From: Escherichia coli O127:H6 str. E2348/69 | Lineage (GTDB): Bacteria; Pseudomonadota; Gammaproteobacteria; Enterobacterales; Enterobacteriaceae | DNA length: 64,000 nucleotides | Strand: one strand, 5' to 3' | Assembly: GCF_000026545.1 (NCBI RefSeq) | Contig: NC_011601.1 | Shown: one piece after another, positions 17,301 to 20,300 of the stretch | How the letters are laid out: each line of letters starts with the position of its first letter | Numbering within the stretch: position 1 is the first letter of the stretch | Position numbers: made by a program

Positions 17301-20300
17301 TGAAACCGATTGAGGTGGATGGCTCTAATGAGATGGGGCAACTGGCAGAGAGTTTGCGCCATATGCAGGGAGAGCTGATGCGTACCGTCGGTGATGTGCG
17401 CAACGGGGCCAATGCCATCTATAGCGGTGCCAGCGAAATCGCCACCGGCAATAACGATCTCTCTTCGCGCACCGAGCAACAGGCCGCTTCGCTGGAAGAG
17501 ACGGCAGCCAGCATGGAGCAACTGACCGCAACGGTGAAACAGAATGCCGAAAATGCGCGCCAGGCCAGCCATCTGGCGTTAAGTGCTTCCGAAACGGCGC
17601 AACGCGGCGGCAAAGTGGTGGATAACGTGGTGCAGACCATGCGCGATATCTCCACCAGTTCGCAGAAAATCGCCGATATTATCAGCGTAATTGACGGCAT
17701 TGCCTTCCAGACCAATATTCTGGCTTTGAACGCGGCGGTTGAGGCTGCGCGTGCGGGTGAGCAAGGGCGCGGTTTTGCGGTGGTCGCGGGAGAAGTGCGT
17801 AATCTGGCCCAGCGTAGCGCTCAGGCTGCTCGTGAAATTAAAAGCCTGATTGAAGACTCGGTGGGGAAAGTGGATGTTGGCTCTACGCTGGTCGAAAGCG
17901 CCGGGGAAACAATGGCGGAGATTGTCAGTGCCGTGACCCGCGTGACGGACATTATGGGCGAAATTGCTTCTGCTTCTGATGAGCAGAGCCGTGGTATCGA
18001 TCAGGTTGGCTTAGCGGTTGCTGAGATGGACCGGGTAACCCAACAAAACGCCGCGCTGGTGGAAGAATCTGCCGCTGCCGCCGCCGCGCTGGAAGAGCAG
18101 GCCAGTCGCCTGACCGAAGCAGTGGCAGTGTTCCGGATTCAGCAACAGCAGCAACAGCAGCGTGAAACATCGGCTGTAGTAAAAACCGTGACGCCAGCTA
18201 CGCCGCGTAAAATGGCCGTGGCAGATAGCAGCGAGAACTGGGAAACGTTTTAACGTAATGATGCCGGATGAGTATTTCATCCGGCGTTTTTATTATTAAA
18301 CCAGGAACAGTGAAATCGCCGGGATATATGTCACCAGCATTAGCATTAACAGTAGAGCCGCCAGTAGGGGCAGGGATTGTTTAAAGAAATTTCCCACCGA
18401 AACTTGCGTGATATTACATACCAGCAGCATCACGGTACCTACCGGTGGCGTGAATGCGCCAATCGACAGGTTGAAGATCATGATGATGCCAAAATGCACC
18501 GGATCGATGCCAAAGTGTTCGACCACCGGTTTTAATAGTGGTACCAGGAGCAGCAAAATGGCGTTTCCTTCCAGAAACATCCCCAGCGTCAGTAGCAATA
18601 TGTTGATAATCAACAGGAACATGTATTTGTTTTCGGTCAGCGAAGTCACAAAATTCGCCACTGCGACACCAGCATGTTCCATTGAGAAAATCCATCCCAA
18701 TGCGGCGCTGGCCATGATTACCAGCATCACCGATGCGGTTGCGCGTGCCGTTTCGCCCAATGCTTTGACGACATGAGAAATCCGCATTTCACGATAGATA
18801 AAAAAGCCAATCGCCAGCACGATTAGCACCGCTACTGCACCTGCTTCTGTTGGGGTGAAAATGTTAGCGCGAATACCACCCACCACAGCAAAAATGAGGA
18901 ACAGCGCAGGCCAGGCCTGTCCCAGCGAGAACACCACCTCTTTGCACGTAGGCCAGCTTTCACGCGAGGGTTTAGCGTTAGTTTTGCGGGCGACAAGGTA
19001 GACGGTAAACATCAGTACGACTGCGCATAGCAAACCAGGTACCAGTCCGGCGATAAACATTTTTCCGATAGAGACGTCGGCAACCAGACCGTAAATAATC
19101 AGGGCTATTCCAGGCGGTATGATCGGGGTGACTAACGAGCCACCAGCGGTAATGGCGGCGGCAAACGCGCGGTTGTAGCCTTTACGCTCCATCTCCGGCA
19201 CCATCATGCGCGACAGCATCGCCGCGTCAGCAAGGTTAGAGGCGCTGACGCCGCCCATCATGGTGCTGACGAGAATGTTTGCCACGCCCAGTCCGCCGCG
19301 CATTTTCCCCACCAGAACGTTGGCAATGTGCAGGATGCGTTCGGCAATGCCGGTGTAGCTCATTAGTGTGCCGAGCAAGATAAAAAACGGAATTGCCAGC
19401 AATGATGGGCTTTGCGTTGGCGCGATTAGTCTTTGCACGGCAATTTCAATCGGTACGCTGGAGAAGAATAAAAAGTAAGCGATGATGCCAATAAACATCG
19501 CCAGATAGACCCGAATGTTGAGAAACAAACAGACGATCATTAGCGGAATAATCAATAACCAACTCATTGCATTTTGTCTCCGCTATCGGATTGTTTTGTA
19601 TCGTTTATTAACCAGTAGAGGGTATAAATAGCCGTTGCCAGTGCGCCGACAGGGACCGCCAGATCGATCCAGAACCAGGAAACCTTCAGAATTTGTGTCA
19701 CTTTAAACTGCGCCATTTCGGCTAGTCGGTAGCCCAGCCAGGCCATATAAAGCAGCAGTGCGATGGAGAGAAGGGCGACCAGTACTGCAATAACACGCCT
19801 GAGTTTGCCTGGAAGCATCTCCATCAGGAAGGGAATGGTCAGGTGCGCCCTGTCACGTTCTGCCACCACTCCACCTAACATCACCACCCAAATCATCAGC
19901 ATTCCCGACATTTCTTCTGTCCATTGAAGCGGTTGGCCGATGAAATAACGCATAAATACCGCTCCAATTGTCACCACAACCAGAACGAATAGCGCAAAGG
20001 CAGCACTAAATTCTGCCACTTTGCCAAAAAGACGCATGAAACCTCCTGTTAGTGCGTGTCCTGCCTAAGAGAGATGAGGCAGGACGCTGAGCATTAATGC
20101 TTATTGCAGTTGCTGTTGAATGGTTTCGTACAGACCTGGTGTCCATTCCGGGAATTGAGAGTAAACTTCGCGTGCTTTCTTCTGGAATGGTCCAGTATCG
20201 GGATAGATCACTTCGACGCCGGCTGCCTGCATGGTTTTCAACATTTCGGCATCACGCTCAAGAGTGAGTTTCTGGCTATAGACACCCGCTTCATAGCCGG

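What the first reader, a model, noticed from the sequence alone, without database searches (positions are those of the whole stretch)
18140..18160. Seven-codon CAG/CAA glutamine run in the Tsr C-terminal linker
The sequence CAGCAACAG CAGCAACAG CAG encodes Q7 just before the C-terminal tail (…[17 protein letters not shown]…), giving a 554-aa Tsr. I recall a shorter Gln run and a 551-aa protein in K-12. The tandem 9-bp unit suggests slipped-strand expansion in the flexible tether that presents the NWETF pentapeptide to CheR/CheB.
Basis: partly seen in the sequence, partly recalled or inferred. Interest (0 to 1): 0.35.

Follow-up and report, generated by a model that had tools for sequence, protein, structure and literature searches.

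The report
Variable glutamine repeat in Tsr tether
The seven-glutamine run in this E. coli serine-chemoreceptor gene is real and sits on a 9-base repeat whose copy number varies between strains, but it is the common, ancestral-length version, and the laboratory strain K-12 carries the shortened one.

Summary
Confirmed: window 18140-18160 is CAGCAACAG CAGCAACAG CAG. It encodes Q518-Q524 of a 554-aa Tsr. The window is EPEC E2348/69.

Among 5,342 complete E. coli genomes matched, about 4,056 carry Q7, about 1,211-1,214 Q4, about 69-72 Q10 and 3 Q13. About 40 more carry an interrupted 554-aa form, QQEQQRQ.

In 80 other Enterobacteriaceae species the tether is 32 residues in 47 and 31-33 in 72. Their longest Gln run is 3. 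Q7 gives 32 residues and K-12 gives 29. So Q7 has the ancestral length and Q4 is a contraction.

Copy number changed repeatedly. Q4, Q7 and Q10 all occur on one identical protein backbone. Near-identical flanking haplotypes carry different alleles. An E2348/69-type 3' end exists with exactly one 9-bp unit missing. Steps are almost always 9 bp. Q8 and Q9 are rare. Q1, Q5, Q6 and Q16 were never found.

This is an in-frame VNTR at the first non-conserved residue of the CheR/CheB tether. The functional effect is untested and probably small. The finding is ordinary in kind. It is mildly useful because the K-12 reference tether is a minority allele.

The parts
16589..18253 (+). tsr coding sequence (serine chemoreceptor, methyl-accepting chemotaxis protein I), 554 aa including the Q7 allele
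   Evidence: ORF. NCBIfam equivalog NF011615 scores 1225 bits against a cutoff of 947, matching 1-554 of a 554-position profile. Pfam TarH+HAMP+MCPsignal are on record for identical or near-identical proteins. RefSeq annotates the 100%-identical E2348/69 locus as tsr.
18140..18160 (+). Perfect tandem repeat, 2.33 copies of CAGCAACAG, encoding Q518-Q524. This is the copy-number-variable element.
   Evidence: Alleles with 1.33, 2.33, 3.33 and 4.33 copies are aligned.
18137..18139 (+). Codon for I517, the last conserved residue of the kinase-control domain. The repeat starts at the very next codon.
   Evidence: R516 and I517 are nearly invariant in 57 orthologues, and conservation ends there. [quoted passage not shown]
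18140..18235 (+). C-terminal tether, residues 518-549 (32 residues in this allele), between the helical body and the pentapeptide
   Evidence: Translation. Tether length in 80 orthologues is 32 residues in 47 and 31-33 in 72. [quoted passage not shown]
18236..18250 (+). [quoted passage not shown]
   Evidence: Translation. W551, E552 and F554 are invariant, and N550 and T553 nearly so, in 57 orthologues. Function is taken from PMC7390727 and PMC8609364.
18260..18288 (+). Terminator-like hairpin followed by a T run, after the tsr stop codon. This is context only, not part of the repeat.
   Evidence: Consensus scan. It is a pattern match only.

Best explanation
The Q7 run is the 2.33-copy allele of an in-frame 9-bp variable-number tandem repeat (CAGCAACAG). 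The repeat lies at the first non-conserved codon of Tsr's disordered C-terminal tether.

Shown here:
1. The ancestral sequence at this spot was an imperfect 9-bp-periodic QQE-QQR-Q of the same length.
2. Perfect Gln runs of four or more were seen only in E. coli. No outgroup species has a run above three.
3. E. coli strains now differ almost only by whole 9-bp units: Q4, Q7, Q10 and Q13.
4. Q7 is the majority allele and has the ancestral length. K-12's Q4 is a one-unit contraction.
5. The same copy-number differences recur on different sequence backgrounds.

Inferred:
- On the E. coli lineage, three base substitutions (GAG to CAG, CGC to CAG) turned the imperfect repeat into a perfect one.
- The changes arise by replication slippage, or unequal exchange, between the overlapping 12-bp direct repeats.
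- Because every change is in frame, the only consequence is to lengthen or shorten the CheR/CheB tether by three residues per unit, giving 29, 32, 35 or 38 residues.
- From the tether-length dependence published for Tar, this should shift the reach of the docked enzymes by about 0.4 nm per unit. That would be a small, possibly near-neutral, change in adaptation kinetics.
For: Sequence and repeat.

Allele series in clean 9-bp steps.

Allele counts in complete genomes: (Q7 query) gives >=95% identity in 4056 genomes, 90-95% in 1283 and 80-90% in 3. (K-12 Q4 query) gives >=95% in 1214, 90-95% in 4056 and 80-90% in 72. One search finds three Q13 records at 100% and at least 57 records with the Q10 span. 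The local BLAST simulation explains how alleles fall into these bands.

Polarity:
- Of 80 species representatives, 47 have a 554-aa protein and 47 a 32-residue tether. The longest Gln run is 3 or fewer.
- Codon alignment shows QQEQQR(A/S)R(E/D) in Salmonella and Citrobacter, and QQ(T/A)QQRQHE in divergent Escherichia, with no indel relative to Q7.
- About 40 complete E. coli genomes and one metagenome contig carry CAG CAA GAG CAG CAA CGC CAG (QQEQQRQ) at 554 aa.
- That tail is 16-18 differences from Q7 tails and 27-29 from the divergent Escherichia. Q7 tails are 31-33 from the latter.
- The curated NCBIfam Tsr model is 554 positions long.

Recurrence:
- Exact-sequence look-ups find Q4, Q7 and Q10 on one protein backbone (at least 1000, at least 1000 and 434 contigs), plus Q9 once.
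- On the K-12 backbone they find Q7 (8 contigs) and Q10 (1).
- On the ST131 backbone they find Q4 (33 contigs), Q10 (21) and Q8 (2).
- On the E2348/69 backbone they find Q4 (2 contigs).
- Q1, Q5, Q6 and Q16 were not found on any backbone on which they were tested.
- HS (Q10) has 0 SNPs in the last 300 columns against Q7 strains. EC28 (Q4), LF82 (Q10) and RM14723/A13 (Q13) differ from each other by 2-5 SNPs.
- L111 is identical to the window from 17903 to beyond 18500 except for an exact 9-bp deletion.

Function: 517 is the last conserved residue, and the tail following it is 34 residues in K-12 (PMC4692393). Tether length shifts the CheR distribution linearly at 0.128 nm per residue in Tar (PMC10561060).
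Against: - No rooted whole-genome phylogeny was built, so neither the number of independent events nor the state at the E. coli root is measured directly.
- Homologous recombination could spread a few old alleles across backgrounds and mimic recurrence. tsr is visibly mosaic.
- The perfect identity of the two units, including the synonymous CAA, could also come from a deletion followed by a duplication on the stem lineage rather than from point substitutions.
- The nearest named sister species (E. fergusonii, E. albertii) were not recovered.
- No functional data exist for any Tsr Q-run allele. The 0.4 nm per unit figure is extrapolated from Tar.
- Allele counts come from identity bands, not from reading every sequence, so rare Q8/Q9-type alleles are lumped with their neighbours.
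Confidence: 0.8

Rival explanations
1. One reading: Q4 (as in K-12) is the original state, and this strain's Q7 is a slipped-strand expansion of the tether.
For: K-12 and BL21 carry Q4. Expansions beyond Q7 do occur (Q10 and Q13). The two 9-bp units of Q7 are identical down to the synonymous CAA, which is what a recent duplication would look like.
Against: Q7 is in about 76% of matched complete genomes and on every haplotype group sampled. Q7 is collinear, with no indel, with the 554-aa orthologues of 80 other species and with the interrupted E. coli allele QQEQQRQ. K-12's flanks differ by only 1-2 bases from those of Q7 strains. From Q4, regaining 9 bp would need slippage on only 3 bp of homology.
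Confidence: 0.07
2. The alleles are few and old. Their presence on many backgrounds reflects homologous recombination shuffling short tsr segments, not repeated slippage.
For: tsr is mosaic. There is a cluster of 8 synonymous differences at 17743-17902 between the window and L111. The interrupted allele shows 11% divergence confined to the last 165 nt. A13 and RM14723 share an identical 3' end but differ upstream.
Against: Q4 occurs on the rare E2348/69-type 3' end, which carries its private S548 codon, with no other change for more than 600 bp. Q4, Q7 and Q10 are found on each of the B1, K-12 and ST131 protein backbones, and Q4 and Q7 on the E2348/69 backbone. One-off Q8 and Q9 variants exist. 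Recombination would have to carry tracts that contain only the repeat.
Confidence: 0.2
3. The repeat is a selected tuning device. Different tether lengths give different adaptation speed or precision for serine-type signals, and lineages keep the length that suits their niche.
For: Tether length matters in Tar, where chains of 22, 29, 34 and 46 residues gave measurably different adaptation behaviour (PMC10561060). Tether length is tightly held at 31-33 residues in 72 of 80 species. Q10 is carried by several mouse- and human-gut isolates, including LF82 and NRG 857C.
Against: No phenotype data exist. The steps are small, 3 residues or about 0.4 nm. The allele distribution tracks sequence background, and host or niche was not analysed. 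Copy number is low, so switching must be slow, unlike true contingency loci.
Confidence: 0.12
4. The length difference is a sequencing or assembly artefact of a low-complexity stretch.
For: None specific. Short repeats are sometimes miscalled.
Against: The repeat is 21 bp long, far below read length. The four length classes recur in thousands of independent complete genomes and in RefSeq proteins.
Confidence: 0.01

Closest known systems
E. coli K-12 Tsr (serine chemoreceptor, 551 aa; RefSeq WP_000919536.1)
   Same: Same gene. The proteins differ at 5 aligned positions besides the Gln run. They share the same domains, the same NWETF pentapeptide and the same position of the Gln run after I517.
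   Different: K-12 has one repeat unit fewer: Q4, a 29-residue tether between I517 and NWETF, 551 aa. That is the minority allele, in about 23% of complete genomes.
C-terminal linker/tether of Tar and Tsr as studied by Hazelbauer and others, and the tethered-particle model of CheR (PMC10561060)
   Same: An unstructured, non-conserved segment that presents NWETF to CheR and CheB. Its length, rather than its sequence, is the parameter shown to matter.
   Different: Those studies used engineered Tar truncations and extensions of 5-12 residues. Here nature supplies a Tsr series in 3-residue steps, and it has not been tested. PMC10561060 relates the '30-aa' Tsr linker to the methylation-site geometry, but that length is specific to the K-12 allele.
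In-frame coding tandem repeats (VNTR / simple sequence repeats) that vary by slipped-strand mispairing in bacteria (general knowledge; the basis of MLVA typing)
   Same: Perfect head-to-tail units, copy-number polymorphism in whole-unit steps, and recurrence on different backgrounds.
   Different: Copy number is very low (1.33-4.33), so the locus is much less mutable than typical typing VNTRs. I found no description of this locus in the searchable literature.
Phase-variable contingency loci (repeat tracts that switch genes on and off)
   Same: Repeat-mediated heritable variation in a surface-signalling gene.
   Different: The unit is a multiple of three and lies inside the reading frame, so nothing is switched off. 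There is no long tract and no evidence of high-frequency switching.
Eukaryotic CAG/CAA polyglutamine tracts, where interruptions stabilise the repeat (general knowledge)
   Same: Gln run encoded by mixed CAG/CAA. In the roughly 14 interrupted-form copies read or listed, no length change was seen, and outgroup proteins are mostly 553-555 aa. The pure form varies.
   Different: Tiny scale (4-13 Gln). The variable unit is 9 bp rather than 3 bp. No aggregation or disease context.

Membership tests
Tsr (methyl-accepting chemotaxis protein I, NCBIfam NF011615 equivalog) | Full-length match to the curated equivalog model above its cutoff | tested here: met
   1225 bits against a cutoff of 947, covering 1-554 of 554 positions. 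Tar, Tcp and Tap models all score below their cutoffs.
Tsr (methyl-accepting chemotaxis protein I, NCBIfam NF011615 equivalog) | Domain order: TarH periplasmic sensor, HAMP, MCP signalling domain | tested here: met
   PF02203, PF00672 and PF00015 are precomputed for identical and 99%-identical proteins and for orthologues.
Tsr (methyl-accepting chemotaxis protein I, NCBIfam NF011615 equivalog) | C-terminal NWETF pentapeptide on a non-conserved tail | tested here: met
   The ORF ends in NWETF. Conservation stops at I517 and resumes at the pentapeptide.
Tsr (methyl-accepting chemotaxis protein I, NCBIfam NF011615 equivalog) | Serine sensing and CheR/CheB-dependent adaptation | not testable with these tools
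   Inferred from the few amino-acid differences (5 aligned positions plus the Gln run) to the K-12 protein.
Variable-number tandem repeat changing by slipped-strand mispairing | Two or more perfect head-to-tail copies | tested here: met
   2.33-2.4 copies, 100% matches.
Variable-number tandem repeat changing by slipped-strand mispairing | Alleles differ by whole repeat units | tested here: met
   1.33, 2.33, 3.33 and 4.33 copies. Spans of 165, 174, 183 and 192 nt across thousands of genomes. Exceptions are very rare: Q8 in 2 contigs and Q9 in 1 contig.
Variable-number tandem repeat changing by slipped-strand mispairing | Independent recurrence of the same change on different backgrounds | tested here: met
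   Recombination is not formally excluded as a contributor.
Variable-number tandem repeat changing by slipped-strand mispairing | Elevated mutation rate at the repeat, measured directly | not testable with these tools
   Needs fluctuation or mutation-accumulation experiments.
Phase-variable contingency locus | Repeat changes shift the reading frame or promoter spacing and switch expression on and off | tested here: not met
   Every length class seen keeps the frame. All alleles encode full-length Tsr ending in NWETF.

The most novel reading that the evidence does not exclude
The 9-bp repeat is a natural 'tether-length dial'. The 29-, 32-, 35- and 38-residue alleles would give measurably different CheR/CheB reach, and hence different adaptation speed and precision for Tsr signals. 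Lineages would retain different settings under selection. Decades of quantitative chemotaxis work on K-12 would then describe a shortened, atypical setting.
Probability: 0.1. Interest if true: 0.5.

Novelty: new member of a known kind. Interest (0 to 1): 0.25.

Why it matters
Tsr of K-12 is a textbook model for quantitative signalling. Its tether length is used in physical models of adaptation, for example the '30-aa Tsr chain' in PMC10561060.

This check shows that K-12's tether is a minority, shortened allele. About three quarters of E. coli, and most related genera, have a tether three residues longer. Nature also offers a ready-made series of 29, 32, 35 and 38 residues, plus a non-slipping interrupted control. 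That makes a cheap, well-posed test of tether-length theory possible.

The locus is also a small, clean example of a repeat becoming length-unstable only after point substitutions made it perfect. Beyond that, it is an ordinary in-frame length polymorphism in a disordered linker.

Tried and rejected
1. Finding closer outgroups. The genome-contig scan returned 80 Tsr orthologues but no E. coli type genome, E. fergusonii or E. albertii. Two protein-database searches returned almost only E. coli sequences. The second did surface the interrupted allele P0156, by luck.
2. (Q13 query) identity bands are not interpretable as allele counts, because large gaps split alignments into high-identity pieces (shown). 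I used only its top rows.
3. My first allele arithmetic assumed every tsr had been matched. One search showed that the interrupted alleles give no megablast hit with the queries, so they sit among the 84 unmatched genomes. It also showed that Q13 probably falls in the >=95% band. This is why I give Q4 as 1211-1214 and Q10 as 69-72.
4. Literature searches for the polymorphism found no description of it. Li & Hazelbauer 2006 and Bartelli & Hazelbauer 2011 are not held.
5. The AlphaFold2 monomer model draws the last helix through the Gln run, to residue 525. However pLDDT is below 50 for residues 507-554 and the mean is 63, so I draw no conclusion about helix extension.
6. Considered and rejected: a phase-variation reading (everything stays in frame) and an artefact reading (thousands of independent genomes).

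Full report
**What is there.** Window 18140-18160 reads CAG CAA CAG CAG CAA CAG CAG. It lies in frame in the ORF 16589..18253 (+), whose 554-aa product ends ...[42 protein letters not shown]. Tandem Repeats Finder calls it 2.4 perfect copies of CAGCAACAG. It is the only perfect short tandem stretch in the 64-kb window, against 0.10 expected per window in Markov simulations. A Q7 run is about 1e-5 likely from Tsr's composition.

The protein matches the curated Tsr equivalog model end to end: 1225 bits against a cutoff of 947, over 554 of 554 positions. The DNA is 100% identical to tsr of EPEC strain E2348/69.

**K-12 comparison.** K-12 BW25113 tsr encodes 551 aa with CAGCAACAGCAG, which is Q4. 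Aligning four strains shows a clean series of 1.33, 2.33, 3.33 and 4.33 units, giving Q4, Q7, Q10 and Q13, with otherwise near-identical flanks.

**Allele frequencies.**
- With the window allele as query, 5,342 of 5,426 complete E. coli genomes match. Of these, 4,056 match at >=95% identity (full-length, ungapped in every row sampled), 1,283 at 90-95% and 3 at 80-90%.
- With the K-12 allele as query, the bands are 1,214, 4,056 and 72.
- The three 100% matches to the Q13 allele, and at least 57 rows spanning 183 nt (Q10), are listed.
- A local BLAST simulation shows how each allele falls into these bands. Q13 probably splits into two high-identity pieces against the K-12 query.
- Together these give Q7 = 4,056 (76%), Q4 = 1,211-1,214 (23%), Q10 = 69-72 (1.3%) and Q13 = 3.
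- These counts come from identity bands, not from reading each sequence. Rare off-step alleles would be hidden within them.

**Direction of change.** A scan of one genome per species returned 80 Tsr orthologues. Their lengths cluster at 554 aa (47 of 80). The tether between the I517 equivalent and the pentapeptide is 32 residues in 47 and 31-33 in 72. No outgroup has more than three consecutive Gln. Q7 gives a 32-residue tether and K-12 gives 29.

Codon by codon, with no indel, Salmonella and Citrobacter read QQEQQR(A/S)R(E/D). Two divergent Escherichia lineages (87-88% nucleotide identity) read QQ(T/A)QQRQHE, where E. coli reads QQQQQQQRE.

A protein search then turned up an E. coli-like Tsr, 98% identical to the window's, that reads QQEQQRQRE. 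Its DNA is CAG CAA GAG CAG CAA CGC CAG. The same form is present in about 40 complete E. coli genomes, for example ETEC O6:H16 strains. These genomes had been missed by the earlier megablast queries.

This allele is already 9-bp periodic but imperfect. It has the same length as Q7 and differs from Q7 in the repeat by three bases. Its 3' end is 16-18 differences from Q7 tails and 27-29 from the divergent Escherichia, while Q7 tails are 31-33 from the latter. This fits a deep branch on the E. coli side.

The simplest history has three stages. It began as an imperfect QQE-QQR-Q repeat of fixed length. Substitutions then purified it to a perfect (CAGCAACAG)2.33. Since then it has lost or gained whole units. 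On this history the window's Q7 has the ancestral length and K-12's Q4 is the contraction. The exact route to the perfect repeat (point substitutions, or a deletion plus a duplication) is inferred, not shown.

**Recurrence.** I made synthetic Tsr proteins that differ only in Gln number and looked them up by exact sequence among about 15 billion proteins.
- On the common B1-type backbone, Q4, Q7 and Q10 all exist (at least 1000, at least 1000 and 434 contigs), and Q9 exists once.
- On the K-12 backbone, Q7 (8 contigs) and Q10 (1) exist.
- On the ST131 backbone, Q4 (33), Q10 (21) and Q8 (2) exist.
- On the E2348/69 backbone, Q4 exists (2 contigs).
- Q1, Q5, Q6 and Q16 were not found on any backbone on which they were tested.

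At the DNA level, HS (Q10) has no SNP in the last 300 aligned columns relative to Q7 strains 13P460A and O177:H21, and K-12 (Q4) has two. EC28 (Q4), LF82 (Q10) and RM14723/A13 (Q13) form a second haplotype group 2-5 SNPs apart.

Contig L111 carries the E2348/69-type 3' end, including its rare S548 codon. It is identical to the window from 17903 to beyond 18500 except for an exact 9-bp deletion in the repeat.

Repeated one-unit changes are therefore the best reading. Recombination certainly also acts on tsr, as the clustered synonymous differences and the mosaic tail show. It may account for part of the pattern.

**Mechanism (inferred).** In Q7 the sequence contains two 12-bp direct repeats offset by 9 bp. 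Misalignment during replication, or unequal exchange, removes or adds one unit. The CAA inside each unit limits 3-bp slippage to the CAGCAG pairs, which fits the rarity of Q8 and Q9. Q4 retains only 3 bp of offset homology and should be comparatively stable. The interrupted allele should be the most stable, and none of the roughly 14 copies read or listed shows a length change. No rate was measured.

**Function (inferred).** Residue 517 is the last conserved position of the kinase-control domain, and the tail following it is non-conserved (PMC4692393). The tail is regarded as an unstructured tether that presents NWETF to CheR and phospho-CheB (PMC7390727 and PMC8609364).

In Tar, chains of 22, 29, 34 and 46 residues shift the CheR distribution linearly, at 0.128 nm per residue, and change adaptation behaviour (PMC10561060). 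Extrapolated to Tsr, one repeat unit is worth about 0.4 nm, so I expect small effects.

That paper relates Tsr's '30-aa' chain to its methylation-site geometry. By the same count, most E. coli have 33.

An AlphaFold2 monomer model drew the last helix through the Gln run. It has pLDDT below 50 from residue 507 onward, so it decides nothing.

**Comparison with known things.** The gene is Tsr by every test available. The repeat behaves like a low-copy in-frame VNTR. It is not a phase-variation switch, because every allele stays in frame. I found no paper describing the polymorphism, although the alleles themselves are in public protein databases, several with RefSeq accessions.

**Verdict.** It is a new, minor member of a familiar class. 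Its modest interest lies in the K-12 reference carrying the atypical tether, and in the natural allele series it offers for testing tether-length models.

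Noticed in passing
window 18071-18088: A second in-frame repeat lies 52 bp upstream. It is the poly-Ala run A495-A500 (GCC GCT GCC GCC GCC GCG), between the Tsr methylation sites E493 and E502. Other E. coli Tsr proteins carry A4, A5, A7 or A8; an A4 form was seen on 130 contigs. It is rare in complete genomes, where only 22 of 5,348 fall in the 90-95% identity band. Indels here would change the helix register between two methylation sites.
   Followed up: partly
window 18230-18232: Two residues before NWETF, the E2348/69 allele has AGC (S548). Other strains have GAG, GGG or GGA (E or G). All three bases of the codon differ from the K-12 form. Only 3 complete genomes match the window's last 174 nt at >=99% identity.
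   Followed up: partly
window 18296-20952: Directly downstream of tsr, this strain has convergent TRAP-transporter genes (DctM, DctQ and DctP homologues). K-12, O157:H7, ST131 and the divergent Escherichia have the MFS transporter lgoT immediately after tsr. This is a structural polymorphism whose boundary sits just past the tsr terminator.
   Followed up: partly
L113 1834-1999; L114 and L115 (tsr 3' ends): The interrupted QQEQQRQ allele shows about 11% divergence from other E. coli in the last 165 nt of tsr, but only about 1.3% in the first 1500 nt. This points to an old allele lineage or a short imported patch in the linker-coding region.
   Followed up: partly
window 17743-17902 versus L111: Eight synonymous differences are clustered in 160 bp between two otherwise identical tsr 3' halves. 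This looks like a short recombination tract.
   Followed up: no
protein P0064 (E. coli Tsr, 570 aa): One database Tsr carries a 16-residue tandem duplication ([16 protein letters not shown] twice) in the HAMP region.
   Followed up: no
window 34719-35043: A 121-bp unit is repeated 2.7 times at 89% identity. Its consensus looks like a tRNA gene plus spacer, probably a tandem tRNA cluster. It was not checked with the tRNA finder.
   Followed up: no
Genome-contig scan: The one-genome-per-species scan returned 80 Tsr orthologues but no typical E. coli genome, no E. fergusonii and no E. albertii; its only E. coli-labelled record (L008) is divergent (88% nucleotide identity to the window's tsr).
   Followed up: no
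L099 (E. coli 2014C-3338) and database proteins: Point-interrupted versions of the pure run exist: QQQQQQQQHQ (CAG to CAT), QQQQQHQ and QQQQQQH.
   Followed up: no
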